A DNA stretch of 55,611 nt, the filler included, from Sphacelaria rigidula (taxonomy: Eukaryota), in the NCBI GenBank assembly GCA_964200075.2. It is 4 parts of 4 records of this genome, joined end to end, with 100 filler letters (N's around TTAATTAATTAA, not from the genome) between each part and the next. Parts side by side here need not be neighbours in the genome. Positions count along the whole stretch, not along the records: positions 13,930 to 27,757 come from CAXNAA020002641.1; 3 more parts are not named here. One strand, given 5' to 3'. The notes under the pieces are model-generated. The model was not told the origin of the DNA, searched no databases, and saw nothing but the letters and a program-made list of their open reading frames with translations. The translations under genes and the position numbers were made by a program. Of the stretch, positions 4,601 to 47,692 are shown piece after piece. Each line of letters starts with the position of its first letter. Positions within the stretch are counted from its first letter, which is position 1.

Positions 4601-7600
4601 CCCCGGTAACTGTAGGGGAGGCTTGCAAAACCCACAGAACTATCGGGTAAGGGTATGAAAGTCTTACAGAGGTCACAGTACTGTCGAGTACGGTAAATAC
4701 CCGATATAATACCCCGGGTATACAGAAAAACGTACCCTACAGAACAAGACCTGGCAATTAGAGCCTTTACAGGCTGGGCCGCGCAGGACGCGTAGAGGGA
4801 TGTGAACACGCGATTTAGCATCTCAATTTTGGGTCGTTTCTATGAAATTTTGACAAAATGTACAGGACGTAAGCACGAAGACTCAAATTTCGCCCCCCCT
4901 AGATTTTTTTCGCGTTATTCACGATTTTGTTCCGAAATGAACTGTTTTGAAATGTTTGGTCGCCTGTAACTCACGGAGGGCAAGAAAAATGTACGGGGCA
5001 GCGGGCGGCGTCTTTGCACATACATCCTGTACATCGTGACAAAATTTCATAGAAAACGACCCGAGATTAAGCAGCTAAATCGCGTGTTCGTGTCCAAGAC
5101 TGGTTCCTATGTGGAGATGGACCAGCCACGAGAAAAATGAAACGCGGTTACCCTGTCCAACTCCAAGTCTTCTTCACGAAATTACGACACGATGCGCATG
5201 AGGTATGTTGTCAAGTCCCTTTGTCCCCCCTTGACATTTTTTTTCAATGAGTTGTCGACGCTTTTAAACCAGAAAACTGTTCCGAAATTTAGATCACCCA
5301 TGACTCACGAGGGAAAAACAAACAGAGGGGCAAAAGGTAGGGGATTCACATATACCTCATGTATATCGTGTCAGAATTTCATGGAAAACGACTTCAAATT
5401 GAGCAGTGAAATCGCGTTCTTCTGCCGAGAATCGGTTCACTTCCTTCAAGAGTACAACAACCTCAGCCGGAACTTTGACGTCTTCTACAAGCCCGACGCC
5501 TTGGCGCGCTGGAGGTCTCGTCCGCGTGCCATCTCAGACACTTTGCGCCTACGGTACGACATGCTTTGTTGTACAACCACAACTAGTGCAGCACTATCAC
5601 CTTGCGGCCGCGGCACAACCGAATGTAACCGTAAATGCGATTTCAGCCGTTTTATTCCCTAATTCCGCCGCACATGCCGGCCTCAACTCTCTACACTTCG
5701 CAGCTGACTACAGTTTGATATTTCGTTTGATGGGAACTTGTCAGATCGCAGTGCTACGTGAAGTGAAAGACGCGCGTTGATTTGCAGATTACCACGATGT
5801 GTCATAGTAGGCACAACTCGCGATAGATCGTCAGTTAGAACCGGCTGAAGGAAAGTCTGCTTCTCAGGCGGCCCAGCCTGTACTAGGTGCATACACGTTG
5901 TTATCGTTCTTGATCGTAATGCTACTGCTGTCTGCACTTCACCACACCTAATCATCGTAAGGTCGTGTTTTAACATACAACACGCATGGGAGTGAAGGTG
6001 ATTCTAGCGGTTTTGGTGGGATTTTTTTTTTTTTGTCCTTCCAATTGATTGCCAATCAGCTGTCGGGCCAATCAGAAGGACAACAAGCGCCAGAATCATC
6101 GTCACTCTCACAACGCGTTCTCACTTTTCTTGCCTCGTTAAAACGAGCCCTTCCTTGGAGAAGGTACGTTTGCTGAAGTCATCAACACAGCTGCCAGTAG
6201 TGTGGCACAGGTCCCAACCAATACCAGGTACTGATGTGACACGGCGATACGTACATAGAGGCGAGAGTATCACAGGAAAACGCGTAATATGTCACATACA
6301 TGGTAATATATGACTATACATGCGATGTATCACAATATTACGTTCAACATGAGACAGATATCAGGTGATCTATTATCGTATATATAGTGTCAGGCAATAG
6401 GTATGGATATGATATATATATATATACCATACATGACATGATACACCATACACCTCAGATATATCGCATTCATAGTGATGTATAAAAAATGTGGGGAACA
6501 TGAAGTTGACTGCAAATAAATCAACTTTTATGACGTACAATGTTTTGTGGAGGAGTATGCACAGGTATCATATACCCCCCCCCGTTTTTAGGTGATACCA
6601 GACTCTACTTGCAATACCGTACGCATTCTGACCCTGCAAGCACCTGACTGCAGGGTAAAAACCGGTCAGGGGTCCCCCGGAACTTTGTCGAAAAAATATG
6701 TCTTGTGCAGTGATCGGGTACGAGTAGCTGTTCTGAACCCCAAATGTAGCATAGCCCATCTGAGTCAATACGACGGGGGTTTACAGTCCAAGGGTCAACT
6801 GTCGTTGTTTTTTGTGAAGCAAAACAAGGACAGTGACTTCTATTTTGAAATCCGCAACCGACGTTGCAATAGTCATATGGCCGACATTTAATAAAATAGG
6901 ACCAAGAACGAGATTACTGAGCAATATCAAAACCGAGAACAACGATCGATGCATTACTCTGCACTAACCGTGCAAACCCTGTAGCTGCAGCAGTGTCCGT
7001 CTCCTCTCCTAAAAGCGCAGGTCCAGCAAATCATATGGTACGTCACGGTGTTTCGTACATGACATAGGGTAGTGCAAGTCCTCTACCGAAAGACTCTGAC
7101 ATTTTTCTCAAGCACTCACAACTCATGAAAGTTTAAGGGCGAACACTACCCTCCTGTTCCCGTGCGGAGTGACGGGATACTCGGAACAATAACTTGCCCC
7201 AAGGTGGAGTCTGCGCACTCTTTGATCAAAAGTGCACGTCTGTACATGCCAAGGCGCGCTGCTCAAGCCTTCGCCAGTCAGAGTCCTTCAATTGTCCCTC
7301 ATAATAAGGTCGACACGACATGTGTGTACTCTGACGGAGGTCACACATGATGCAGTACAGATACGACGCGTTTGAAGCTGGCACCGTTTCCGCCCGCGCT
7401 GCTGATGTCTCATGTCTCATGTCTCACGTCTGATGTGTGTGTGAGCTTGGTCACCTGAAACAACTACGCAGAAATAGGAGCGCATGTCCATGTACACCGG
7501 TCGTAGGATGCAAACCCGCACTCTAACGGCATCCCGGTTCCGCGCTAACTGAGCCGGGCGAATCCAGGATACGACACAATCAGTTGAAGCACCAGCGCAA

Positions 7601-14389: not shown

Positions 14390-15993
14390 GTGGAATTGAC
14401 GTACGTGAATGGCATTGCCGCCCGGGCTTCGTCGAGAAGGCGAGGTCGTCGGAGAAGGCTGGACAAATCCGATGAAATGACGGATTTGGTGGATCTGGAA
14501 AAGTCTACGTGGGGACGGAATCGACAGCTACAGACCGAGGTATGTATGAGATCGTGACGGCTTTCATGGATTTGGAAGAAGTGGAGCTTTCTCTCATTTT
14601 TTCTTCGGAGCGTTGTAACAATGCCTTTCATGTTTTCTCAACTTTTGGTTGGTCTTTCGAGATTTCGAACGATACTTGAGTAGCTGAGGTTTGATCGGCA
14701 CCTGAAAAACGATTGTTGTTGTTGTCTTCACATTAGAAAATGTTCCGATATCTGCGCGGTACATTCGTACTGGGCATCTGATGCGGACGCCTTCCGAATT
14801 CATGGGCTAGCTTCCTATAAATATGGTATGAGGATATCAGACAAAACCAGAAAAAAAAAAAACCCAAATTCAAGAAAAGTATCGACGATTGCGTCTGCTG
14901 CAATAGACGAGAGATTCCATACTGTACGCAGTTCACTTCTTGACACTGTGATATGTTGTTTAGAGTGTGGTGGGTTTTAGGTTCTGCGGTGCTGGTCTCA
15001 GAAGTTTTATGCAGCGCACGTTTTTTTTTTTCCGGGAAATTGCTCACACTATGGATTGAGAGATAAATGGATGGATTGATCTTGCCCCTGAATTATGCCT
15101 TTGTAAGAGCAGGTCGAGTAGAGTACTGTATGTTCTTCTGCATACTTGGGTGAAATACCCGAGTATTTACTCTACTTAATTCTTGGGTAGATTGGGTACG
15201 GCCTGAATACTCTACTCAAATTTTGAGTAGATTGAGTATGACTTTTAACAATACCGAGTGTTGAGTATACTCTACTCGACCTGCCCTTGAACTCTATGAA
15301 TAACAAGCATTGAAACTGGGCTGGTGAATGGCCTGCAAAATATTGTTTCGAATCCAGGCCGGCCCAGGCTATGAATCGCAGATTCCCACCTCAAGTTCGA
15401 AATTTGCTCTTTGAAATTTGGTGTGGAGAATCGCAAGAGTATTCTAAGGGGCGTGTCTTTGCGCATTAGTTTTCGATCGAAAAATTGCGGTGGAAAACAA
15501 AAATCCCGACCTGATAGGTCGTGATCTCAACCATTGTCGCAAATTTTGAAGATGGTCAAAATCATGACCTGTCAGATCGGGAGTTTTGTTTTTCACGGCA
15601 CAATTCCGATCGAAAGTTGCCGGACCACATTGATTTTCGTCAGTCAAGAATACCCTCGTGACAGGGAGGTATTTTGTACACTAGGACCAGTTCTCATGTG
15701 TAATTTTTTTTTTTGACATGTGCATTCTTGGTCCTTCTCCCTCGGTTTCCGCCCGAAAAGAGGGTTAGGCGGATGTTAAGACGTCGGAGTGACTTGCTCT
15801 ACTCGTTGAGACCGTTTCAAAGCACTTTCACGCTTCCCGTCGGTGACAGTATTGTTCTTGGCCAAACTTTCATTTTGATTAACAAATGATCAAGTCATCA
15901 AAAAGCAAGGGGAAAAACCCGCGTGCTCCGTCTCGACTTTGTAGGGGTCGGAGCTCCTTGGTTTTTATGTCTACGGCATGCAGTATCATAAAT

Positions 15994-16030
<37 letters not shown>

Positions 16031-19000
16031 ACCCCCCCCCCCCCCCCCCCCGCCCCCCNNNNNNNNNNTTTTGTGTGGGGGGGGGTGTTTTTTTTTTTTT
16101 TTTTCGAGCCGCCGGCAAACAAAAACACCCCCCCCCCCCCCCCCCCCCCCGGTCTTTGTGGCGTACCCTCATAATTTACACGATATGCGTCTCTCTCTCT
16201 CCTCTGCTGCTATGGAATTCCCATTCAATTTAGTATCAAAAAAGACTGGAGTATGAGATAATAGCACCCGAGGCAACGGACAGGACGGACATATTGGACA
16301 CCATCGATGCTGGGGTGCGCGGACTCAACGCCATATTCGCCGTTCAGGAGGAAGCTTCTGGCTTCCAGGATGCTCAGGGTTACGTGAGTGTTCTTTGATT
16401 TCTTGCTTGTCCTGGAATCGCTGTCTTTCCGGCAGCGAGTAAGCCATCCGAAAATTCAACCCATGTTGAAGTGGTACATGGGGTAAGTGAAGTTGGTCTC
16501 AGAGACGAATTTGCCGCCAAACGTTTTCAAATGATGAAAAAAAATGGTCATCCACCAAAGAGTCGACACGTGCTACATACAAGAGTGTCGACATCATTCG
16601 CATCGGCATCGTTTTTACTTGAACAGATGGATCCACGAATCCATTTAAGATTAACCACAGTGGCCGTGAAAAGGGTTGAGATGAAGATTATGCTGATCCA
16701 AAATGTCACCTACCCTCGCGGTGAAAGGGTGAAGTAGTGAGGCCATGGTGAGAGTGGTGGTGTCAACCTTCTGAGTACCTACCCTGATAATGAAAGAGTT
16801 GATCTTTGGGGGAGTTTACAGTCCCAAGTACTGCTATTATAGCTCGTCCTAAACGTATTTTGGTCGAAAGTGGGCGTCCCGCAGGCGCCGATTTGAGGTT
16901 TACCAACGCATCTTTTTGCCTAGGACATCCGCTGCACCCTCTGTGTCTGAAGGTTCTCATGCCTTGGTCGGGGTGAGGGTTGGGGTTGGCGGCATCTCGT
17001 GAATACAGGGTGGGCCGCCCAAGACGCGAACAGGAGTATTGGCACTGCTCAACTTCGAGTCGTTTACTATAACATGATATTTTGACACGATGTGCAGGAC
17101 GTATACGCGAAGACCGCACCTTTCCTTCCCTACTTTATGTTTTTCGTAACTTATTTGTGATCTAGTTCCAAAAACTTTTCCCGAGTATTCTGTCGCCAAT
17201 ATCTCACGGCAAAAGGACGCAGGGCGGAAAAAGACGTGGTCTTCGCTCATACGTCCTGTAAATGTTGCCAAGTTTCCACAATAAACGGCCCGAACCTGAG
17301 CAGCATAATCACGTTTTTGTGTCGAGAACCGGTTCCCATGTGGAGATGGACCAGTCACGAACAGTTGAAACGCAGTTACGCTGTTCAGTTTCATGTTGTT
17401 TTCCATGAAATTTTGATAAGATGTGCATGCGGTACGTTCATGGACCCTCCCCCTACCTCCCCCTGGCGCTTGTTTGGGCAACGGTCTAGAAAAGGTATAC
17501 CTTTTTGTATTTTGCCCAAGAAAGGCACGAAAAATGACCAGACACGCGAAAACAACACAGCACACCATCTAGACCGATTACGCCCCGGATTTTTCACGCA
17601 CAGCAATCGGGGGGCTCCTCGGCTCCCGGGCCCCGAAACAAACCTAGAAAACGACTTGTTTCTCGCGAGATGTAGCCGTGCGCAGAAGGACGCCTCGCCT
17701 GCAGCACCCTATAGCCTAAGTCCCTCAAAACTCTGGTGCTCAGATCAGTGGGGTATGTCCGCTATGGAGACGCTCCACTGTGGCCTCAAAACCTGTCGCA
17801 TTGTGAGCAGGGCCTCCTTATCCGTATGGCCAGTGAAGCATTGGGCCAACATGTTGAGGAAGTTGCCCAATGTGGCCTATGCCTTAGTAGGCCAACATTC
17901 TCAGTACCACCAACTCGTCTTCAGTTAACTCCCCTCCCGTGCCCTGAGTTTCCGGTCCCTGATGTCCCTGTTGCTCTAGTTTCCTTCTGTCCTCTTCCTC
18001 TTTGATAGCAGTTCTCTGGGCCACCGAGTGCACCGGAACCTTCTTGCCGTTTGCATCTAAGAAAAAACTAGTTGCAATCTCGTTCAGGTCCAGAGCCCTT
18101 CGTGGTCCCTTAAAAGCTGCATGGGCCTTCAGTTTCTTCAGCAATGAACTCCGTTGACTATCGGCATTGGTGCCCAGTAGGTATCGGTTCACCTTGCCGA
18201 TATCTTAGCTTTCTAGAGCATTAATCTGCTCAACCAACTGGACATTTGGTCGGTGTGGCCTCTTAGGAGGCTCTCTCCGGCTCATGGATATTATACTGCC
18301 GGAACCACTGAGGCTGTCTGATGTTAGTCCTACATAGCAATAGCATGCGATAAACAAACCCGATGGCATACAGCACGTTAGCCCTCCCCTGACATGGTCC
18401 ACCATGGTATTAAATGCCCTGAGCATATCACTGTCATCGAATATGACAGACACACATTGCCCTCCATTTGAGAGCATTAGTGCCATATCTCTCTTAAGGG
18501 TACTGAGTACCTCTCCTATTCTTATCCTGGTGTCTGACTTCACCTTGCTATCCACCAGCTGGGGCAGGGGCATTAGGGTACTTTCAGAAGGGGGGGAAAC
18601 CTTCGTGTGCACATCAGGTCCCAAATGTTGCCACACCTCAATGAGTGCTCCAGCTAGCACATACTTCCACGCTACCCTAGTGCAATGACCAACCTCCTGC
18701 GTGGTTATATGGGACGTTATGCCAGTGGGCACACTTTTACCGGTGGCTATGGCCAACCGTGATACGACTTCCGTGAGGTTGTCCACTCGGCTGATCAGGA
18801 CCTCTACCTTTGATGCCATGACGGCAACGTTGGACGTACACACGCTCGGATGCAGCAGATGAAGCTTGAACCGCGAGGTACACCATGACTCCACGCTTTA
18901 TTACAGGACCAGGGATACCAGTGTTGATAGGAGTTGGTGCACTCGGTTTAGATGGTGGTGGTGCTCCAGATGTCAAACTTTCAACCAGGGTTCTCTCCTC

Positions 19001-22000
19001 CTCGCTAACAACCGAACCACTGTCCGATTATACACCTCCAGTCTTGCCACTTCCAACCTTACCACCCATGCCCGGAGAAACAAAGTATTGTGGCACCTGG
19101 TTGCCTGATCCTACAGCACTGGTGAAAGCACCGGCGTATGCTGCGGTACCAGATGCCAACGGTACACCAACACCGGCATCCATGCTACTCTTGGCTGACG
19201 TGGAGATACGCTTGGCCAGCTTTGCAATGTCACGCTGTAAGTTCTCCATTGTTGCCGGTTGTGCGCTGGTCCCATCATTTGCAGACGACACAGACTTGAC
19301 CGCCTTCACAACCTCATCACCTGCAGCCCTGGTCAACGTCGTAATCTCGCTACTGGATGCGAGGATGTTGTTGTACCGCTCTAATAGATCCCCGATAGAA
19401 ACACCCTTGGTCAGCATGTGGGACGTCATAGCGTCATCACTGACCTTCACCCTAACAGCATCTTTGGCAAATATGGTGAAATGACCAGTGGTGATGTCCT
19501 CATCCGTGACACCCTTTCTAGCACCAACAGTTGGCTGTATCATCTCGTACATCCTGACCACATGACCGCTGTTGCTCAACTTCTCCTTTACTTCATTGGC
19601 CACCATGCAGCCGGTGTTGCCTATACCTACTATGGACACAGTGTCACCAACAGGAACGTCCCCCAAGAGCACACCCGATATGTAGTAGGACATCTGATCG
19701 ATACGACCTATGTAGCTGACACCACGTTCAACCTCGTGAAACATCTTCCCACCTGACATATAATCCACATTTACCATTCTAATGCCTGTAGGTACAGTTG
19801 CGCCGCAGGCAAAAAATGGCGTTACACGACGCAAACGCCTCCTCTTTTACCCCAACAAATCAACAAATCAACAATAAATCAAGTTATTATATATGATTTG
19901 ATTGTTGTTGATTACTTGATGACAACCAACTAATCATGAGAAAGTTGATGCGATGTTGATACACAATCAAATCAATTTTTTAATCATGATCACCCGTGAT
20001 TATTTAGTTGATGAGCAACCCTAGCCACAAACCTACCATTGTAGGGGGTCCAATCCCCGAAGGGCACGGTTCGGACGAATCGCCGCCGGTTCTAATCGTC
20101 AAATCCACGATTTTTCAGGCGTGATTGCTCGGAAGATGGAAAAAAGTTGACCGCTGCTCAAAAAAATCGTCACGCAATTTTTGCGCCATTCGACGTGTCG
20201 GTGGTGCGCGTACCTGAAAACAAAGCCTAAGGATTGATTCGTAGGGCACGAATGAAATACAAAAAAATCAAGTAATATCCAGACGAAATAATTCATTTGT
20301 CCGACCCCTTCAAAAGGGCTAATAATAATCAAGGGTTGTGGCGGTAGGGTTAGTAACATGTTGTCGTTGTGGCGTTCGTGAACGGCAAGTGGACGGGAAA
20401 AAAGCCGAATGTGTTGACGCAATGGTTGGAATTGGCGCGTGAATTCCCTCGCGCACAGTGTGCCGCATCGGGTACAGTGTGGGAAGAGATCGCCCAGGTA
20501 AGGTACGATCGAAACAAAATTCCTATATCAGGTATGCCTTACCGAAATTTGGCCTTGGAAAGGGAATTGGTTTCTGCAGGCGAAGCGTCCTTCTGCGCAT
20601 GGCGACGTCTCGCGAGTAACATGTCTTCTTCTGTGTTTGTTTCGAGGCCCGGGAGCAGAGGAGCCCCCGGATTGCTGTGCGTGAAAAATTCGTAGCGCAA
20701 TCGGTCTAGATGGTGTGTTGTGCTGTTTTCGCATTTCTGGTGACTTGTAGTACCTTGGGCAAATACGAGAAGGTATACCTTTTCTAGGCGATTGCTTTTG
20801 TTTCTGTCATGAATCGCCGAGACATTCGCACCAGGAAACTGTGACGAAATTTTGATCACCAACAACTCACGAGAAACAAGAAAAGAGGTGAAGAGATAAC
20901 AGTGAGGGCTTTGCAAATACCTCGTGTTCATGGTGTCAAAATTCCACAGTGAAATGATGAAAAAATTGTGCTGCCCAGCCGCGTTTTCCTGTCGAAAACC
21001 AGTTGACTCGCTTTTTTCAAGTATAACAAGCTCAGCCGGAACTTCGACGTTCTTTACAAGCTTTCTTCACCCGCTGCTTACCGGTTCGCGCGTTACCACC
21101 AGACGTCTTGGCGTGCTCGGGGCTACATCTGCGTGCTATCTCAAACAGTGCGCGCCTACAGTACGACATGCATTTTTGTACACCACACCACACCAACTTG
21201 TGCAGCAGCACGACTTGCGGCCGCGGCACGCGGCACAACCGACTGTAACCGAAAATTCGATTTCAGCCGTTTTGCCCTCCGTAGTCCCGCCGCACATGTC
21301 AGCCTCAACAATACACACTTTGCAGCTGATCTAAAGTTTGTTATTCCGCTTGATTGGGACTTATCGGATCGCCGTGCTACTACTGTGCGTGGATTGGAAG
21401 ACGTGCGTTGATTTGCAGGTCACCACGATATATGATGGTAGGCACGACTCGCGATGCATCGTTGGTTAGACCAGGCTGGAGGAAAGTGAGCTTGTTGGGC
21501 GGCCCAAGCTGGGTTACACTATTATTTTAACCATTGTTCTCGACCATGTGGTGATCAGCCCTCTAATCCTTTGGGAACGCGACCCCTCAAAACATGATGT
21601 TTGCACGCACGGGCCTTTTTTGAATCGGCATCATTTTCACCTGAAAACGACCTGAGATGAGGTGCCGATTCACTGAAGCCCCCTGCGTGCAAGCCCCGTG
21701 TTTCTGGGAGTCCGCTCCCATGAGGGTTGATATGTAGGCTGTAATGTACTGTCTGTTTTACATCGTGCTATATGCAGACGGTACAACCAATACTATGTTC
21801 TCTGCACTGCACGCTGTTCTATTTTTTGTCACGCCCCCGTCTATATGCAAACAATACAGACGGTGTGTACCATCTGCAGTGCAAGATATTCTTATGTTTC
21901 TCGAATACAGTACAACAAGGCAGTACAGTACTACAAAAATGTACAACACAAGTGCTGCACATCTGGATGCAGGTGCTTCAAGGGGTTGATACTGTATCCT

Positions 22001-31079: not shown

Positions 31080-32450
31080 ATTGTTGTTGTCTTCACATTA
31101 AAACCGTTCCGATATCTGCGCAGTACATTCGTACTGGGCATCTGATGCGGACGCCTTCCGTGGTCACAGGCTAGCAAAAAAACTAGAACTAAATTATAAC
31201 TCACACAACGCTGTACAAACAAAACAGGGATAAATAATAAAGAAGAAAAGAGAAAACACATGAGTAACCTCAGAAGATCCGGTGCCGCAGGTGGCCATTC
31301 GGACTTCAGGGGGTGGCACCCGACTTTCCAACTCGACGCGCAACGCTAAGTAGAAATGAACATGGGGTCTGAATACGGGCGAGACTCAAGGTCCCAAATA
31401 CCACCAACCAAAGAACTATGAATCGCAAGGTTCCATCTTTCAACCTCTTGAGGGACAGCCACACGTACAAGCATATCAGGTGTATCAAGACTAGCACTGC
31501 ATGACATAACGTCATCCCTCATCGGGGGGGTTCACCCCCCACCCCCCCCCTTCTCTGGACCGTCGTCATTGCTGTGCTATTTGGGCTTTGTTGGTCTCCC
31601 GTCTAACCGCACGCAGTCGGCTGGCCTCCTCTTCATTTCTGTGCCATGAGGTCATGAACCTGTCCACTCCCTGCAGCACTACCGCGTGCCACGGCAACCC
31701 CCCCTCCTTATTCGCTGCGGAGGGCCATAGGGCGCGGTTGATTCCGAATGTCTGGCGGTTGTCGTCCGTAGAGCCGTCTGTGGCTCCGGAAGCGTGGAGA
31801 TCGTCCCTCAGGCATTTGAGCCAGTTTTTTTCTGGGCACCCTGGTCCTGGATCTTCCCCCCCGACTAGTTTTCCAAATGCTAATCGCTTCGGTAATCGTC
31901 CGTCCGATTGTCTAGCCAGGGCTCCCGCGAACAGCAGTCGTCGTTGCCGGACGATGTCTTCGGCACTTTGGCATCCGGTCTTCTTGAGGGCCTGTGCGTA
32001 CGACAGCTGTCGATATGTGCCGCGCACTCGGCAGTACCCGATAACTTGCAGGAGGAGCCGCAAGTGCACCTTTCTCAGCAATTCGTAGTGTTCGCGGCAC
32101 GGGGCCCACGTCATGCATCCGTATAGTGGGGCCTCCGTCGCCTCCGCCTTCAGCGGTCGGACCTTGAGTCTCCATGGTGCTTGCGGTCGGTCAAAGAGTC
32201 CCCTGAATAATTTCCTGATGCATGCCCACGCTGCTCTACTCCGAATGTTGATTTCTTGCTTGAGTTCGCCCTCTCTGTTGACGAGCCCGCCGAAGTATCG
32301 GAAACTACTTTTCTGGGCGTATTTCTGGCCCGCAGCTTCGATGATCAGCGGTGGGGGAGATGGTGTTGGTGACTCCCCCTTCTTTGGTGCTTGCCTTGAC
32401 ACTCGCATCAAGAGGGTCCCCGTCTTCTCCGATACGGGTACAGGCCAGCA
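31048..32450 (-). mobile_element. 5'-truncated RTE-clade LINE: C-terminal RT/thumb ORF, 3' UTR, (CAA)n tail
   Basis: ORF 31566-32468 with VSEKT, FRYFGG, EINIRSRAAW, LYGCMTW, RQRRLLFAGALARQSDGRLPK, WLKCLRDDL; (ttg)n tail at 31048-31090. Confidence 0.9.
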
Positions 32451-32799
32451 CCATGGTGGTGGAGTCACCCTTCAATTCCGTATTCTGGCGAAGAAGCAGG
32501 AAGGAAAAGTTTTTTGGACATCATTTCTCGATTTTCCTCATTCTTAACCGCCTCTGGGGGGGAGGGGAGGGGGAGGCGGTGTAGAACGTATTCCAGTCTG
32601 TGAGACCCCTTGAATCACTTCAAATCCAGTACATCCTGGACAAAAAAACATTGTGAAGAAGTGTACTGCGTGCAGTATCGATGATTGCGTCTATTGCAAT
32701 AGACGACAGATCACGTACTGTACGCAGTAAAAAATTTGGCAATGTAATCTTTTGTCCTGGGTGTGAAATCAAGCGAAAAAACTAATCAATTTTACTTCC

Positions 32800-34170: not shown

Positions 34171-37100
34171 TCTCAGCAAATTATTTTCTCGATCGAGAAA
34201 GTGCGGTGGAAACGAAGAAAATCAGATCTGATAGGTGGTCAATTATGTCAACGTCACTCGTGTTGACGGAAATTTTTATTGTCATATTCGTTACATTAGC
34301 TCGATCTCTCAAATCCGTTGCCACAGAGTGCAAGGAGCGTAACACCCATACCCAAAACTCAAACAGCCTGTTGACGTGAAAAGTTGCGATGGAAAAAGAA
34401 AATTCCGATCTGATACGTCTTCTTGTCAGCACAAGTGACGTCGACATCAAATTACGGCCTTTATCAGATCGTTTTTTTTTCACCTTCCTTCACCCCATTT
34501 TTTTTTTATCGAAGAAATATTTGCTGAGACATCGCCTTAGCTTCGCGGTGTTGCACGCGCCCCGTGTACGAACTAGTCAACGCCTCGCAGGCTGCAATTC
34601 AAGACTAGGCGATGCACACACTAGTGTACTATATGTCATGACCGAACCTCTTGAGACTAGCGCGGCACGTGCACTGCGCCAAGATGATGGGGGTTTAGTG
34701 AGCCGGACCCCCACACTGCCGTGAGGCAGTCTAGCCGAGCCTCCAGGTCATCGGCGCACGAACCTGCTCGCGGTGTAAGTGTTGGGTCAGGTTTCCTCCT
34801 TCCTTTGAGGAAAAGAATGAATAAATAAATAAAGAGCGGTGTACCGGCAATATCTGGCGGAACATTGTAGGATAGCCGCACATTTCAACAGATACTGCTG
34901 TCAGTCCTTGTTCAAGTGTGTTCAGATAGATGGTGCAGCTTTGTACAGCAGCCGCAGCAGCTTACAACTTGTTGATTTAGACTGCTGTCTTTTCAATTTT
35001 CTCATGACGTAAATTGGCTGAATGTATGTCGCATGACTGTTTTGTTGATACATACGAATCAATCAATCGGAACCCTTTCATTTTTTTCGTTTTTTTTTCT
35101 ACGGTACGTCTGGCCCCCGGTGACGGCACAACGTGGACGTCGTTCCCTAATGGTCGCAGTTTTGTACTCACCCCTGAGGCAGACGTCCAAACGTCGGCAG
35201 TCGCGGCTAGGCTCGTCCCTAGCAGCTTATGGCTTCTTCCACGGCCGCATCACTCCTGTTCGCCGATGCCACACTAAAGACTTCGAGGGTCGGACGAATG
35301 AGAATTCGTCTGGAAATTTCTTGGTTTTAGTATATTTGATTCAACTCGTACGAATCGATCCCTAGACTTTGTTTTCAGTGTTGCAACCCAGCTACACGCA
35401 GCCCAGACACGTGGAATGGCGCAAAAGTTGCGTGGATACCCCTTGGACCAGCGGTCAACTTATATTTCCCTTTTGGGCCATCAGGCCGAAGAAATCGTGA
35501 ATTTGGTGATACATAGTTGTGATGATTCGTCCTAACCGTGGAAGACTTTATTTACTCGGGCGGCAAATTTTTCGCTTTCGATTGCCTTCCAGGACGCGTG
35601 CATCAACGCCGGGTGTTGGGAGATGCAACTAGCGACTAGTTGTCCAGGAGCATCCGGTTTAGCAGAGCTTCGTTGACACGCCCGACGTGAGAAGATCTGC
35701 CACTAACTAGTTGGCGTCAGGGTGCAGCACAAATAGACGTATTTTTTTAACGGAAAGAACTGAAGGAGGATAAAACAAAAGTGCACGCCATTTTTAATCC
35801 CTCTGAAACACAACTCCATGATGGCACACGACAACAGCAACTACAGACCTACTCCGTACGAGTTCGCTGCCAAAATGTGGACTTCTCAGACCCATCAATA
35901 CTTGAGCGCGAAGAGCTGAGAGTAGCGGTTACGGCTGGCGATGTCGGTGCTTCTTGTGCTCCGTGTGCGCACCAGTCGGTCAGTGCTGGCAGGGGGAAAC
36001 GGTATCCCGAGCAGCTCCGTGCCTACACCCCCTGTCATCAGTGCACACTAATAACGTTATGCACACCATCACTATACAGCAGTAGCAAAGGGCACAACGT
36101 GTAAGTAGCGCTCTACTGTAGTTACCGTGATGGTTGAGTGCCTTGTGTGCTACTTCCGTAAGTGCCGCAGCTGTGAGTTGGATCAAATGAACGTCGCTTG
36201 GACAAGTGCTGTTATTTTACCGAGTTAGTGGTGAGGATGATGAAACTAATTCGTGCTGAACTGTACGTGCCAAGGTGTGCGTTCCAAGGTCAGAAAGTGG
36301 CTTGCTTGCTTTTTATGTTCGTTGCTTTCATACATGGTGCACAGTAGAGTCAGGGGTGTTAATCGAGGGGGGGGGGGTGTTGGCCTCCGGAAAATGTCCG
36401 ATCTGTTCGACGACATTTTTCTCACCACAGGCAACGTATTGTTCTTCCCTCTTTTCTCACATGGGTTCACTTGATTTTTTACTACACCCCTCGAGTAGAG
36501 TAATCGTGCGTTCAGGCAACGCCCTCCGTAATCAACGCTACATACATCTCCAAGACGCTGATACCGACTGGGCCCAGATCTCTTTTTTCAAGTGCTGTCA
36601 AAGCATATGACTTCAAAATATGCAAAAAGTCGTCATTTTCGGTCTTTTTTTCGTTGAGCGCGGGATGCGGCCCGAAAAATAAGAAACATGCCTACTGCAT
36701 GCAGATTTGAAGGCACGAAACGCAAAAAAAAGCGCTTGAGTGTCACACGTCGCCGAGAAGTGGGGTGCCAAAGTCGGTCCCTCGGAGGAAGCTCTCCACC
36801 AACCCGCCGTCCTCAACGACAGCAAGTGAAGAAGGAAACACAGGGGATGCTGGTGGGGAAACATGGAAGGAGAATACTGAGTCGGAGTAACGTTGTTCCG
36901 TTGCGTGCGTTTCTCCACCTACGAATGTGGCTGTTTTGTACTTCTCTCCTGGAGAGTAATTCCATGTGACGCAACTGTCACGACCACAGCAGGGTGCCTG
37001 TGTTACACGTACATGATACTACATATGTATATACGGCTGTAGATGCCTCATTTGTTCTTCGTCCGCAGGCAAAAGTGACGTCGGTGAAGTAATGAAGCAT

Positions 37101-37693: not shown

Positions 37694-38436
37694 TAACGCC
37701 GCATTTTGCCTAGGGAACACTTTGCACCCCCCTTGCTCGAGTGTTCTCGGTATACGTTGGGTTGGAATTAGGGTTGCCATTAACATCAGTTCGAGATAAC
37801 ATCCTAGAAAATTCCTGTCCAACCAAGCGGCCAACTGAACTCCGAAATGTTCACCCTTCGCCGCAGTATGCGCACACTCTTGTAGCAATACCAGTACCTG
37901 ACAAGTTCCGTACGTTGTGTCGGAAATTTCGTACCGTAGCGGGCATACCTGCACCCCCACATAATACAATCTTGGGAAATTCGGTCGCGTTGGAAGGCTG
38001 TTTGTCCCAAATAAGGGAAGACATAAATCAGAGCCAGAACGTTCTTGAAAATCCAAAATTCATCCACACCCACATGGGTACGGAGTACAGTAGAGTAGTG
38101 TTGTACAGACGTCTGTGTCGACACGCCAGCTCACACTTGATGAAAATCTTGCAACGGTCGGATGAACTCATGGTTCGTCTGAAAATTACTTGATTTTAGT
38201 CTGATTGATTCGTACCGTACGAATCAATCGTTAGGCTTTGTTTTTAGCGTCGCAACCCAGGTACGCGCGACCCAGGCACGTGGAACGGCGCAAAAAATGC
38301 GTGGAGACCTTTTCGACCAGCGGTCAACTTTTTTTCTCTCCTTCCACGAGCAACCAGGCCTGGAATATCGTAGATTTGGTGATCCGAACCGGCGATGATT
38401 AATTCAAACCGTGAATTAACAGCCTTGATGCGTTTC

Positions 38437-43350: not shown

Positions 43351-44004
43351 TACAATTGCAGCAAACTTTCACTACCACAATCCGGTCGCCTCATAATGGC
43401 TCAGCTAGGATATGTCACACGAACTTGAGACCCGCCCAACAACCATCAATGTACAACTCATGCGTGTGGTCATCTTTCTTATCATTTCTGTGCTTTGTCT
43501 CCGTGTTTTTCTTGAAGTACATTGTTTCTCATTATTGTATTGCATTCAGCATGCCTTGTTTATTCTATTTTCTTCATGAACATGTCTACAGTTTTACAGG
43601 ATTCGAGGAATTGAGGGTACGGCTGCTGAAATGGTTACAGAAATGTACAAACGTTGGCCTCAGAGAGGGTATGCTTCACGCACACTCTTGCGCAATCACA
43701 TCCTACCCGACGACCCGACGCCATGCTACCGTCTGACACGTTTCCCTTCGAGCTCTGGACTGGCCGTAAACATGACACACGTACCACAGCTGTCTCATAA
43801 GTAAGAAGTTCCTTCTGTATCCACCCACACCATCTAAAATACTTCATACCCGAAGTGTTTGCATCCCACATTGGGGGGGAAGAAACTGGAGAGTGACACC
43901 CACATTACACCTGACCCCTAAATTTGTCACCGTGTGAGGTTGTCGAAACTCCACGTTGTTTCAGGCGCTGACGGGTGGGGGAAGGGGAAGACTTCAAGGG
44001 GGGG

Positions 44005-44500
44005 AGGGATACTCGTTTGTTTCGAGCATCCAAGTAATCTTCTTAGTGCTATCATCTGTACTGTTTCCAACGTCTTCACCAACTTCACTTTTTTTTTCTG
44101 AGCTGTTGCAATATCTACTGTTACCAATGTCCTCACCAACTTCACTGCATCCAAGTATTCTCTGAGCTGTTGCAATCTCCACTGTTTCCAACGCCCTCAC
44201 TAAGTTCACTGCATCCAAGAATTATCTTAGCTGCTGCCATCTGTACTTTTTCTAATTTCTTCATCAACTTAACCCCTAGCTTTGCTGTTCCTAATGCCAA
44301 TATCAGGTCATCAATGAATACCTCGAGTAGAGTGGGTGATGGCGTACATCCTGGTGCAACTCCTTGCAAAACATCAAAAATTCGATATTTCCCCGTCAAG
44401 CATCATCGCACTTTTGGTACATTTCTGTCATCGTCACCATCGTCCAAGCCTTTCCTTTGACCCCAGTTCCCCATATATTTTCCCACAACCCATTGCTTCA
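44005..44500 (-). mobile_element. Degraded non-LTR (LINE) RT fragment
   Basis: NGLWENIWGTGVKGK, FDVLQGVAPGCTPSPTLLEVFIDDL (QGxxLSP motif), KLEKVQMAAAKIILGCS. Confidence 0.82.
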
Positions 44501-45264
44501 TACTACGTCATGGGCCTTTTGCACCTGTATCACCCCACAGTTTCTTCGACCCCACCATCGTACTCGAAGCACCCCACTCCCCCACGTAGTGATGCCTTGA
44601 AGCTTTTGCTCATAGATGCCACCTCCTGGAAAGGCTGGAGCAGTGCCAAGCTGAAGCGCCAAGTGTATGATTATAGGAATCGCTTTCGGCGAGTACGATA
44701 CGAAGATGGAGACTGGAAAGAGCTATCTCGCCGGGAACTCGATCGCTCCAAGCTGGAATGGAGGAACCAAAGATGGACTGCAGCCAGCGACGTTTACGAG
44801 CAGCTGTTGTGTGATGTGGTATATGATATCATTGCCAGAGGAATGCAATGATGAAATAAGTGAATAAGTAGCTACATATCACTGGTACCGTACGTTTCAG
44901 TCACGAATTTCGAGTATTTCTGTCTTTTTCTTTTGTTGCTTTGTTATATATTGTTCCCATTTGGTAACATACAGGTACATGTGTGAGCCAAGGCGCGTGG
45001 GCTCTAGGTCAAGTAGAAAAGGCGTCAGCAGTTACAGAAGAGCACCCTCGAAAGCTACACTCCTATAACTATTGTTCAGTTCGCGGGAAGGTTGTTTTTA
45101 GCGAGGTTCAAGACCCGCACTACCCCAGAATCCAGTGTAACCAGCCCGGGGTTTTCACGCGCGGTTAAGCTAACTAGCCAATCGTTCTCCAGTCTAACTG
45201 AGATCCCGGGAAAACGACAGCAACCATACTTGTCTGCTGTTTCTGTCGTTGGAAAGGGCTCTAT

Positions 45265-45920
45265 TATGCTGTATTTAGCGCCCATTGCACCGCGGGCAAC
45301 ACGTCCACGCACTCGGTCACTTCTCGACGCTGCTCGAGTAGAATAGAGCGAAGAGCACGAACTACTTCCTTGACCATGCGTTCGCACGTACCGTTAGACT
45401 ACGTAGAATACGCTACCACAAACGGGTAATCAACGCGCAAAGCCTCTCGCAATCGGGCCAAGATCGCGTTCTTGAAATGCGTGGCGGTACCACCCACCCA
45501 CACACGCGGCACCCCTAAAGTTTTGCACCAATTCAGCAAAGACGCAGCACTCGATTCAGCAGTGCACACTGCTACTCGTTCCAGAGCCACAAAGTTGCTC
45601 AAATCATCCATGATTACCAAAATGTATCGGAACCCAGCATCCTCCGACAAACCTTGGGAAGCTAGCGGGCCACTCTCGCCCACGTACAAGAACTCAAAAC
45701 GAACGACTTCATTCGGCGTGGTCCCATGGACCGTTTCACAGAGCAGGCGGGGAACAACATCACCCGCCCTCGAGTCAGCACAGTGAAGACACTGGCGGAC
45801 AAATTCGCGCACATGAGTTTCTATCCCCTGCCAGACACAAAACTCTTGCAAGCGCACGAGCGTCGCAGCCACGCCGCGATGTCCGACATCGCGCATGTGC
45901 GCACGCACAACTCATCAAAC
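45265..45920 (-). pseudogene. gypsy integrase remnant
   Basis: HHCC zinc finger and degenerate DDE core, frameshift near 45400. Confidence 0.85.
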
Positions 45921-46204
45921 GTATGTGCAATTGTTTGTCGGAGCTGGGAATCCACAACACGTTTCGGCCACGTACATGCACACGAAACAGACCTTCATTG
46001 TCCAAAATCGCAGTACCAGCGTCCGACTCGAAAGATTGCACATCCGCATCTTCGGCCCCAAGGTCTTTTCGTTGCGCTTGGCCGACAACAGATTTGGACG
46101 GCGTCGAGTCATCAGGTTCACACGGACCATACACAGCCACAGCGCGCTCAGGCAAAGTGGGAATATTTACCCAGCGCGACAGCAAGTCACCTCACGCGTT
46201 ACGT

Positions 46205-47692
46205 TCACCCTTTTCCATGACAAATCGTGTACCGATACTGGCCTAATACACCTCTCCACCCCTCCAATCGCTGTGCCAAGACCTTGGACACAGACGTCAC
46301 GCATGCCTCCGGGTTGAAAATGTACGCTGGATTTCGGTGATCCGTGAAAATGTGCACGCCATTCCCCAATAGATGCTCGAGACGACGAAAAGTGCTGACG
46401 ATAGCAAAACCTTCCTTGTCAACGGTTACCCAACGCATCTGTGAACCCTTGAAAGTACCACCAAGAAAAGCCAGCGGTTCATGCGTCAGACCTTCAACCG
46501 GCAGCCGTTGTTGCATTTTTGCATCAGGCACCTGCGTTACAAAACTACCCCAATGACACTCGGATGCATCCGGAAACATCGGCACCTGGCAACCGGGGCG
46601 GGGATGGAACAGCGTCACGGCATGAGCCACGAGATCCATCGCTGCCGCCCATGCCTGCATCCTGTCCTCCGCCGCAGCCTTCTTCGGAAACGCCATATCT
46701 TGACTGAACCACCTCGCCTGCAACTTCCGTAACACCAACCCGGGCGCCAAAAGAGCCGCCGTGCACACTGCCAACCAACTCGACCTCACTGGATCGTACC
46801 GCCGCGGCTTCGTCTTCACCGCGGACGCCCCAGGGTTTGGCTGAACACGCATGGGCTCCACGCGCGCAGGGGGTTCACCCCGCACTGCACGACGAAACGC
46901 GTTGACGCGGCGATGCAAGATGTTGCGCAGGCGTTCCGCTTTGAGGACTCTGAGGCCTTTCGCCACAGCATCCGTCACGCTCTCCTCCAGCGCGACCTCC
47001 CGAGCGGACTCCTCTTCCGCCGGGTCCATCAACATATCCAGGCCGCGCTCTACTAAGCGTTCCGCCGCCTCATCACGCTCCTCGGACACCTGCCCCCCCG
47101 CCTCCTGGAGAGCATCAACCGACAAGCTCACTTTGCTTCTGGCCAAAAAAACAGGCGTCTCAACACTCGAACCGGGCGACGGCATTTGCGTTTTTAGGGA
47201 CTCTAACAGCCGATCATACGGATCGACTCCGTGTCCCCGAAGCGTCGGTATGCCCAACAGAACGACACCATCCGTCCCCGGCATGATCGCAAACGATATC
47301 GGGGATAATTTCGCTGGCCCCCGGGTGATCCTGAACGCCAACTGTAGGGGAATCGTCCGCTCCGTGACATTTATACGTTGCCTCGATGCGGTGATGGCCT
47401 GTCGCGCCCCGAGTGAGAACGGAATGCGGATTTGCTCACCGGGGAGCAGACGTTCAGGCATTTCTACAATCAGCACCGACACGCTCGTGAAATGGGTGCC
47501 TGAATCCAACACAGCGTTGACTGATATGGCTCCTCGTGCTCGTTGATTTGGGAGATATAACTCAGCAGGAATATAATTCTCTTGATCCTCGACCGGCACC
47601 CGCTCCGCCGACTGGTTTGTCGTGATCCTCACTTGGCGCCACGGCTGTGCGTGCGGCGCAGACATAGACGCCCCCGCTGGGGTTACCGGCAC
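46205..47692 (-). pseudogene. gypsy pol remnant ORF (protease fused to RNase H)
   Basis: 495-aa ORF with DSG protease and RNase H motifs, no YxDD. Confidence 0.85.

What the first reader, a model, noticed from the sequence alone, without database searches (positions are those of the whole stretch)
17705..19800. CpG-poor, intronless, decayed ~630-codon coding block: candidate endogenous RNA-virus element
Seen: four minus-strand ORFs join through two in-frame TAA stops (19028-19030, 18205-18207) and one frameshift (~18840). The product has a globular-looking N-terminus, a G/S/P-rich linker, heptad-like helices (TMENLQRDIAKLAKRIS; VEVLISRVDNLTEVVSRL) and a further domain; MSRREPP may start a second gene. 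There are no introns, whereas host exons here are mostly 80-210 nt. A hand count gives ~11 CpG in 480 nt (18241-18720) against ~18 in 240 nt of the CNOT10 exon, and local TEs are CpG-rich. No RT, integrase, DDE or recombinase motif is recognisable. Inference: a foreign sequence, with composition and a disordered-plus-coiled-coil layout reminiscent of non-polymerase RNA-virus proteins. I cannot assign a family.
Basis: partly seen in the sequence, partly recalled or inferred. Interest (0 to 1): 0.75.

Follow-up and report, generated by a model that had tools for sequence, protein, structure and literature searches.

The report
Orphan two-gene cargo inside a transposon
The CpG-poor, intronless coding block is real, but it is two dead genes of unknown origin sitting inside a 3.3-kb inverted-repeat transposon, and nothing ties it to an RNA virus.

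Summary
The ORFs, both in-frame TAA stops and the CpG deficit are real. CpG o/e is 0.62 for the block against 0.97 for the window, the lowest of 455 two-kb windows.

The block is probably not one 630-codon gene.
- Gene A (19777-19028) belongs to a low-copy repeat family in this alga. Other copies read TCA where this copy has TAA.
- Gene B (18897-17887) is single-copy. It has five unnamed relatives among 1.84 billion representative proteins; the best (E 7e-33) aligns straight across the 18205 TAA.
- B homology and the copy-number drop both begin near 18840-18870. B therefore looks 5'-truncated and abutted to A.

The block lies inside one 3,318-bp insertion (17478-20795). This insertion has 235-nt inverted terminal repeats and a degenerate T-rich duplication at its ends, and it interrupts another repeat whose uninterrupted copy lies at 4768-5875.

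No viral, transposase or other known family or fold matched.

Best reading: dead foreign-composition cargo in a non-autonomous cut-and-paste transposon, donor unknown. An RNA-virus origin is unsupported but not excluded.

The parts
17478..20795 (.). Whole inserted element, 3,318 bp, bounded by inverted repeats
   Evidence: The flanks 17004-17438 and 20830-21506 are colinear with an uninterrupted repeat copy at 4768-5209 and 5268-5875. The inverted arms sit at both ends.
17478..17717 (+). Left terminal inverted repeat
   Evidence: About 235 nt, 83-84% complementary to the right arm. The terminal motif CTAGAAAAGGTATACCTT occurs only twice in the window, once at each end, against 0.03 expected by chance. 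Summed contig depth at the outer part is about 57,000-80,000, against about 30 for single-copy contigs in run X1.
20561..20795 (-). Right terminal inverted repeat
   Evidence: In run X1, 35 contigs diverge exactly behind 20795 (table 7).
17469..17477 (.). Left copy of a putative target-site duplication (CTTGTTTGG)
   Evidence: The uninterrupted repeat copy has a single T-run here. Six of 8 bases match the right copy, but only when the right copy is offset by 1 nt.
20796..20804 (.). Right copy of a putative target-site duplication (TTTTGTTTC)
19028..19777 (-). Gene A: ATG at 19777, 249 codons, TAA at 19028-19030. No known family.
   Evidence: It belongs to a repeat family: summed depth is 108-479 against about 30 for single-copy contigs in X1. 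Other copies read TCA (Ser) at the TAA.
18740..19027 (-). Frame that continues A past its TAA: a G/S/P-rich tail. It carries a weak hAT-like ASSAASERV motif at 18839-18865.
   Evidence: Dimer_Tnp_hAT scores E 0.13 and 12.5 bits against a cut-off of 21.4, so this is a lead only.
18838..18870 (.). Junction: the copy number drops and gene B homology begins
   Evidence: An exact single-copy contig spans 17594-18867. Variant multi-copy contigs start at 18852 and 18876 (table 8). The profile alignment starts at ORF residue 22 (18834), with its envelope from residue 9 (18873). Relative P0009 aligns from query residue 11 (18867).
17884..18897 (-). Gene B: single-copy and 5'-truncated, with an internal TAA at 18205-18207 and a terminal TAA at 17884-17886. 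It is a member of a rare unnamed protein family.
   Evidence: Five hits among 1.84 billion representatives; the best has E 7.2e-33 and 40% identity, and aligns across the TAA to the C-terminus. A profile built from relatives alone hits this ORF at E 5e-22 among 1,854 window ORFs. Its depth equals single-copy depth.
19961..20560 (.). CpG-rich, high-copy internal leader between gene A and the right repeat. It contains a nested repeat at 20065-20253.
   Evidence: Summed depth is about 3,300-64,000 in X1, and family boundaries lie at 20065 and 20253. Copies sit at 38174-38413 and 35287-35540. CpG o/e is 1.2-1.5.

Best explanation
The block is the interior of one 3.3-kb cut-and-paste-type DNA transposon (17478-20795). 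This element has about 235-nt terminal inverted repeats and landed inside another repeat.

It encodes no recognisable transposase. It would therefore have been moved in trans by an autonomous relative that recognises the repeat ends (inferred).

Its interior holds two separate dead genes on the minus strand rather than one 630-codon gene.
- Gene A belongs to a low-copy repeat family of this genome and carries one nonsense change here.
- Gene B is a single-copy, 5'-truncated copy of a rare orphan protein family and also carries one nonsense change.

Both genes are intronless and depleted in CpG at every codon position. The element's own ends and leader, the host exon and the other local elements are not depleted. 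I read the two genes as recently acquired cargo from a CpG-poor donor that I cannot name. I do not read them as host genes or as the transposon's own machinery.

Shown: the anatomy, the copy numbers, the composition and the family membership of B. Inferred: capture, trans-mobilisation and foreign origin.
For: - One insertion: the flanks are colinear with an uninterrupted repeat copy at 4768-5875. That copy has 58 nt where this locus has about 3.4 kb.
- The inverted arms lie exactly at the insertion's ends. The terminal motif occurs only there in the window.
- A T-rich segment, single in the uninterrupted copy, stands on both sides of the insertion.
- A family with deletion derivatives: the outer ends reach a summed depth of about 57,000-80,000, against about 30 for single-copy contigs. 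In X1 and X3 a contig joins 17522 directly to 20564.
- Two units: an exact single-copy contig spans 17594-18867, while 18833-19960 has a depth of 108-879 with variant contigs. Gene B homology starts at the same place.
- B is a real gene family: E 7e-33 down to 6e-5 for five relatives, with alignment across the TAA and to the shared C-terminus.
- Composition: CpG o/e is 0.54 in B and 0.70 in A, against 1.13-1.14 in the arms and 0.97 in the window. At codon positions 3-1 it is 0.33-0.53, against 0.90-0.98 elsewhere.
- No transposase: no Pfam family reached its curated cut-off on any frame of either strand inside the element.
Against: - The target-site duplication is degenerate. It matches 6 of 8 bases, only with a 1-nt offset, and lies in low-complexity T-rich DNA.
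- The arms are only 84% alike. This fits imperfect repeats or an old insertion. An old insertion sits uneasily with frames that carry just one stop each.
- The depth figures are sums over all contigs laid at 85% likeness or more. The tool warns that they are not copy numbers.
- Depth falls steadily from the right end towards gene B. This could equally mean that A and B are the element's own genes, that most copies are internal-deletion derivatives, and that this is the only near-complete copy.
- No donor was found, so 'foreign' rests on composition alone.
- Gene A never received an exhaustive homology search, because the single job went to B.
Confidence: 0.5

Rival explanations
1. A and B are the element's own genes. 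On this reading the locus is the one near-complete copy of an undescribed two-ORF inverted-repeat transposon family, and the thousands of short copies are its deletion derivatives.
For: - Both ORFs point the same way behind a high-copy leader and an AT-rich upstream stretch.
- Summed depth falls stepwise from the right end: about 6,300, then 879, 479, 339, 140, and finally about 31. This is what nested internal deletions would give.
- One deletion joint, 17522 to 20564, is seen in two runs.
- Four of B's five relatives look fragmentary, as decayed selfish copies would.
Against: - Neither protein resembles any transposase, nuclease, recombinase or DNA-binding family.
- Gene A is not basic and is largely G/A/S-rich.
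- The ORFs are CpG-poor whereas the element's ends and leader are CpG-rich. This is unexpected if all parts shared a long history in this genome.
- B homology starts only at the copy-number break, and relatives have about 46 more N-terminal residues.
Confidence: 0.2
2. The cargo derives from a DNA virus or another mobile element of the alga, for example a large DNA virus or a virophage-like or polinton-like element. On this reading it was later carried or interrupted by the transposon.
For: - The genes are intronless, on the same strand and closely packed, with an AT-rich upstream region.
- The composition is unlike the host's.
- Integrated viral genes are documented in algal genomes (PMC9651163, passages read).
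Against: - No relative turned up in IMG/VR in 4 scans.
- BFVD gave 0 matches at E <= 0.001.
- None of the five relatives carries a name or a Pfam domain.
- No viral hallmark gene lies nearby in the window.
Confidence: 0.12
3. This is the first reader's reading: an endogenous element copied from a non-retroviral RNA virus, in the form of non-polymerase proteins such as a nucleoprotein or phosphoprotein.
For: - CpG depletion and the lack of introns.
- A coiled-coil plus helical layout in B.
- Weak Pfam Rhabdo_ncap_2, E 0.019.
- B's 5' truncation would fit retroposition of an RNA.
- Relatives sit on short contigs of 1.4-2.6 kb.
Against: - The Pfam hit is below its cut-off (14.9 against 25 bits) and appears in 1 of 7 family members.
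- There is no viral fold match: BFVD gave none. The VIA search gave Z of about 5 only on a generic three-helix bundle, and the tool says Z below about 13 is common for helical models.
- No A-run lies at the 3' end of B.
- The block lies between the inverted repeats of a DNA transposon.
- Only five relatives exist in a library that includes heavily sampled RNA viromes, and four of them are fragmentary.
Confidence: 0.08
4. These are decayed host genes or processed pseudogenes of a lineage-specific algal gene family.
For: - B is single-copy with only one stop.
- Its relatives are unnamed and could come from other algae.
Against: - The composition differs from the host exon at positions that do not change the amino acid.
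- The block sits inside a mobile element that is itself inside a repeat.
- Gene A is a dispersed repeat whose visible differences are mostly non-synonymous: 10 non-synonymous, 1 stop-to-Ser and 6 synonymous among the 17 shown.
Confidence: 0.08

Closest known systems
Pack-MULEs and other gene-carrying non-autonomous DNA transposons. The defining features are recalled; PMC5861414 was seen as a search listing and abstract only.
   Same: Long terminal inverted repeats. A duplication of about 8-9 bp at the insertion site. No transposase of its own. Non-transposon coding sequence between the ends. Many shorter family members.
   Different: Pack-MULE cargo is fragments of host genes, often with introns. 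Here the cargo is intronless, near full-length and compositionally unlike the host. No Mutator transposase relative could be sought, because no genome is held.
hAT-family elements and their Ds-like deletion derivatives. The features are recalled; PMC3260210 was seen as a listing and abstract only.
   Same: A duplication that could be 8 bp. The left end reads CAACG, which fits the recalled YARNG terminus. A deletion-derivative joint is present. There is a weak hAT dimerisation-motif hit at 18839-18865.
   Different: hAT repeats are short, about 10-25 bp, whereas these are about 235 nt. The right end reads CAATC. The hAT hit is below its cut-off, and no further hAT domain was found.
Endogenous RNA-virus elements of algae, such as the dinornavirus-like RdRp and capsid insertions in Symbiodiniaceae (PMC9651163, passages read).
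   Same: Intronless virus-like ORFs embedded among mobile elements in an algal genome.
   Different: Those elements are recognised by significant similarity to RdRp, capsid or helicase proteins. Here no viral similarity of any kind reaches significance.

Membership tests
Non-retroviral endogenous RNA-virus element | Significant sequence or fold similarity to a protein of an RNA virus | tested here: not met
   Pfam Rhabdo_ncap_2 scored 14.9 bits against a cut-off of 25 and appears in 1 of 7 members. BFVD gave 0 matches at E <= 0.001. Four IMG/VR scans found no relative. Gene A received no exhaustive search.
Non-retroviral endogenous RNA-virus element | Marks of retroposition: a 3' A-run and flanking duplications around the viral part | tested here: not met
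   The 166 nt between B's stop (17884) and the left arm (17717) contain no A-run. B's 5' truncation would be compatible with retroposition.
Terminal-inverted-repeat (class II) DNA transposon | Terminal inverted repeats at the exact ends of an insertion | tested here: met
   Arms 17478-17717 and 20561-20795, 83-84% alike. The insertion is defined against the uninterrupted repeat copy at 4768-5875.
Terminal-inverted-repeat (class II) DNA transposon | Target-site duplication | tested here: inconclusive
   CTTGTTTG against TTTGTTTC, 6 of 8 with a 1-nt offset, in T-rich DNA.
Terminal-inverted-repeat (class II) DNA transposon | Multiple copies sharing the ends, including deletion derivatives | tested here: met
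   Summed depth at the ends is about 57,000-80,000, against about 30 for single-copy contigs. The joint 17522 to 20564 is seen in X1 and X3. Depth is only a rough proxy for copy number.
Terminal-inverted-repeat (class II) DNA transposon | Transposase gene (needed for an autonomous member) | tested here: not met
   No transposase family on either strand inside the element. Hence 'non-autonomous'.
Pack-MULE / Mutator-like | Cargo made of host gene fragments; a Mutator transposase partner in the genome | tested here: not met
   The cargo is intronless and CpG-poor, unlike the host exon. A partner could not be sought because no genome is held.
hAT superfamily | hAT C-terminal dimerisation domain; short YARNG-type ends; 8-bp duplication | tested here: not met
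   Dimer_Tnp_hAT scored 12.5 bits against a cut-off of 21.4, over 24 residues only. The repeats are about 235 nt. The duplication length is not resolved.
Rhabdovirus nucleoprotein (PF03216) | Score above the curated cut-off, shared by relatives | tested here: not met
   14.9 and 14.0 bits against a cut-off of 25, covering 43 of 293 profile positions, and 1 of 7 members.
Unnamed family of gene B (P0006-P0010) | Significant full-length sequence similarity | tested here: met
   E 7.2e-33, 1.2e-18, 5.2e-11, 2.6e-09 and 5.7e-05. A profile built from relatives alone recovers the ORF at E 5e-22.

The most novel reading that the evidence does not exclude
A and B are the remains of an unknown algal virus, RNA or DNA, picked up by or trapped in a transposon. 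Gene B's family would then be a viral structural or replication-accessory protein family. At present that family is known only from five unnamed clusters in public assemblies.
Probability: 0.15. Interest if true: 0.6.

Novelty: new member of a known kind. Interest (0 to 1): 0.3.

Why it matters
The result corrects a tempting reading. CpG-poor, intronless ORFs in an algal genome do not by themselves indicate an RNA-virus fossil.

What is left is a modest but concrete case of a transposon carrying compositionally foreign, orphan genes in an alga. It also yields a rare protein family (gene B plus five clusters) with a confident helical core and no known fold.

If the donor were identified as a virus, the locus would record a past host-virus contact. 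It would also show transposon-mediated carriage of viral genes.

Tried and rejected
**Homology for gene A**
- Pfam, PHROGs and NCBIfam gave nothing.
- PDB sequence search gave only E 2.9.
- The word-index search of 5.8 billion proteins gave none, and covered only lengths of 149-476 aa.
- ESM Atlas gave no usable hit.
- IMG/VR gave none.
- tblastn against phages and plasmids gave none.
- Single-sequence AlphaFold gave pLDDT 36.8, which is unusable, so no fold search was run.
- By eye, residues around VSIVGIGNTG...VVRMYE look like a Rossmann or methyltransferase glycine loop. No tool supports this.

**Homology for gene B beyond its five relatives**
- Word-index searches with the protein and with the alignment gave nothing new.
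- A PDB profile search gave 0 hits.
- Foldseek against BFVD and PDB gave 0 matches at E <= 0.001.
- The VIA wide search gave a best Z of 5.1, from generic three-helix bundles that include paramyxovirus P and filovirus VP35 domains. The tool's own notes place this at noise level for helical models.
- The Atlas search with P0009 gave only scores of 0.85 or less.
- Context for the relatives could not be obtained.

**Frameshift join.** It is not supported statistically.

**hAT remainder.** A search downstream of B found none.

**Lineage marker.** A dinoflagellate spliced-leader relic gave 0 matches. Rfam and tRNA scans gave none.

**Expression**
- No RNA holder is listed.
- Runs X6 and X8, labelled RNA only as a guess, hold variant contigs over 19021-19943 and none over 17705-18832.
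- Their cover tracks DNA copy number, so I draw no conclusion on expression.

**Other checks**
- Earlier findings of the scan gave nothing in 5 look-ups.
- The hairpin upstream of A has a z-score of only -2.2.


Full report

Largely yes. Stop-to-stop listing gives four minus-strand frames: 19028-19846 (272 aa), 18737-19027 (96 aa), 18205-18897 (230 aa) and 17884-18204 (106 aa).

The codons at 19028-19030 and 18205-18207 are TAA, and each is in frame with the next ORF. The middle two frames overlap out of phase.

In 100 mononucleotide shuffles of the window, none produced an ORF of 272 aa or more, and 7 produced one of 230 aa or more.

The composition figures are:
- CpG o/e is 0.62 for the block: 0.54 for 17884-18850 and 0.70 for 18851-19960.
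- The block is the lowest of 455 two-kb windows. The CpG-poor domain runs from about 17700 to about 19800.
- The deficit holds at codon positions 3-1, where the amino-acid sequence does not constrain it: 0.53 in A and 0.33 in the first part of B. The host exon and two other long ORFs give 0.90-0.98.

So the composition really is unlike its surroundings.

**2. One gene or two?**

An exhaustive phmmer search used the 18897-17887 read-through, with X at the TAA, against 1.84 billion representative proteins. It found five proteins at E 7.2e-33, 1.2e-18, 5.2e-11, 2.6e-09 and 5.7e-05.
- The best relative (P0006, 40% identity) aligns from query residue 136 to 333. That is straight across the TAA at 18205 and on to a shared C-terminus.
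- The two downstream ORFs were therefore one gene, which I call B. The TAA is a nonsense change.
- MSRREPP is internal to that alignment and is not a second start.

A profile built from three relatives only recovers ORF 18208-18897 at E 5e-22 among 1,854 window ORFs. It does not touch the 18740-19027 frame. A shuffle test of that frame against the relatives' N-termini gives p = 0.09.

Homology begins at ORF residues 9-22, about 18834-18873, upstream of the first ATG at 18819. The relatives carry about 46 more N-terminal residues. B is therefore 5'-truncated or frameshifted here, and the proposed join to the upstream frame is unproven.

**3. Copy number**

Contigs of four public runs were laid on 17000-21200.
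- An exact contig covers 17594-18867 in two studies. Its depth is 31.6 in X1 and 13.4 in X3, the same as neighbouring unique contigs (27.6-32.9 in X1).
- From 18833 to 19960 the summed depth is 108-879 in X1, and variant contigs start at 18852 and 18876.
- The tool warns that summed depth is not a copy number, so I use it only for order of magnitude: B about 1, A a few to a few tens.
- At 19029 the other copies read G on the plus strand. This turns the TAA after gene A into TCA (Ser).
- Of the 17 best-supported differences shown in the A and tail frames, 6 are synonymous, 10 are non-synonymous and 1 is the stop-to-Ser change. More than 200 further differences were not shown. This looks like neutral decay.

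The copy-number break coincides with the start of B homology. A and B therefore look like two units abutted at about 18840-18870.

**4. Context**

The block is flanked by inverted arms at 17478-17717 and 20561-20795, 83-84% alike.
- The sequences outside the arms, 17004-17438 and 20830-21506, are colinear with an uninterrupted copy of another repeat at 4768-5209 and 5268-5875. That copy has 58 nt where this locus has about 3.4 kb.
- So 17478-20795 (3,318 bp) is one insertion with the inverted repeats exactly at its ends.
- A T-rich segment that is single in the uninterrupted copy stands on both sides: CTTGTTTGG and TTTTGTTTC. It matches 6 of 8 bases with a 1-nt offset. This is compatible with a duplication of about 8-9 bp, but it is not decisive.
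- The 18-nt terminal motif occurs only twice in the window, once at each end.
- The outer repeat ends reach a summed depth of about 57,000-80,000. A contig in both X1 and X3 joins 17522 directly to 20564, as an internal-deletion derivative would.
- Between gene A and the right repeat lies a CpG-rich, high-copy leader with a nested short repeat at 20065-20253.

This is the anatomy of a cut-and-paste DNA transposon family with many short derivatives.

**5. What do the proteins resemble?**

Nothing known.

Gene A has no hit in Pfam, PHROGs, NCBIfam, PDB sequences, the word-index search, the Atlas, IMG/VR, phages or plasmids. Its single-sequence model is unusable at pLDDT 36.8.

For gene B:
- The only viral hint is Rhabdo_ncap_2 at 14.9 bits against a cut-off of 25. 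It covers 43 of 293 profile positions and appears in 1 of 7 family members. I treat it as chance.
- The alignment-based model has mean pLDDT 61 and pTM 0.58, with an all-helical core at residues 40-165 scoring 65-88.
- That model finds nothing in BFVD or PDB by Foldseek.
- In the VIA wide search it finds only generic three-helix bundles at Z of about 5.
- The relatives are unnamed and come from Logan and ENA assemblies on contigs of 1.4-7.5 kb.
- Four of the five look fragmentary against the 310-aa P0009. This suggests decayed genomic copies rather than intact viral genomes, which is an inference.

A 24-residue match to the hAT dimerisation motif lies at 18839-18865 (E 0.13). It is below the cut-off and has no continuation.

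**6. Explanation**

I favour a non-autonomous inverted-repeat transposon carrying two dead, intronless genes acquired from a CpG-poor donor (confidence 0.5).
- The ends and the leader share the host's CpG level, but the genes do not. This argues against a long common history of the genes with the element, and against host origin.
- The main rival (0.2) is that A and B are the element's own genes and that this is its only near-complete copy. The steady fall in depth from the right end fits that reading.
- A DNA-virus or other mobile-element donor (0.12), an RNA-virus donor (0.08) and decayed host genes (0.08) remain possible.
- For the RNA-virus reading there is no positive evidence beyond composition and B's 5' truncation. 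The 3' end has no A-run.

**7. Comparison and novelty**

The locus works like gene-carrying non-autonomous DNA transposons of the Pack-MULE or Ds kind. It differs in that its cargo is intronless, near full-length and unlike host genes. It cannot be filed under Mutator or hAT on the tests available.

It is a new member of a known kind, with an orphan protein family attached. Interest is modest. It would rise if the relatives' contigs or the full genome showed a viral donor.

No supplementary files were consulted. PMC9651163 was read as passages only. PMC5861414 and PMC3260210 were seen only as listings and abstracts.

Noticed in passing
window 43751-44650: A second CpG-poor stretch, with a minimum o/e of 0.40 in 500-nt windows. 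It lies just beside the gypsy-type element, whose RNase H and integrase domains were confirmed at 45402-47788. Its nature was not examined.
   Followed up: no
window 20065-20253, with copies at 38174-38413 and 35287-35540: A short repeat with sharp family boundaries and the highest summed depth in the laid stretch (about 64,000-90,000). It is nested in the element's leader.
   Followed up: partly
window 17486-17509 and 20764-20787: The transposon ends carry a palindrome of about 24 nt around GGTATACC, within about 10 nt of the terminus. This could be a hairpin or a binding site.
   Followed up: no
window 17884-19030, minus strand: All six stop codons that bound or interrupt the block's frames are TAA: 19028, 18901, 18898, 18737, 18205 and 17884. 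At both internal TAA stops the comparison sequence has Ser: paralogues read TCA at 19029, and P0006 has S at the 18205 column. Probably coincidence.
   Followed up: partly
window 17161-17928 (+) and 20539-21066 (-): Long open frames of 255 and 175 aa run through the two inverted arms in the same relative frame. They have no Pfam match. This may be chance in a high-copy repeat.
   Followed up: partly
window 15987-16150: Two long poly-C tracts beside a short N gap at 16059-16068.
   Followed up: no
window 31569-32471 (-): A 301-aa open frame that looks by eye like the tail of a reverse transcriptase. It has no Pfam family at E <= 0.01.
   Followed up: partly
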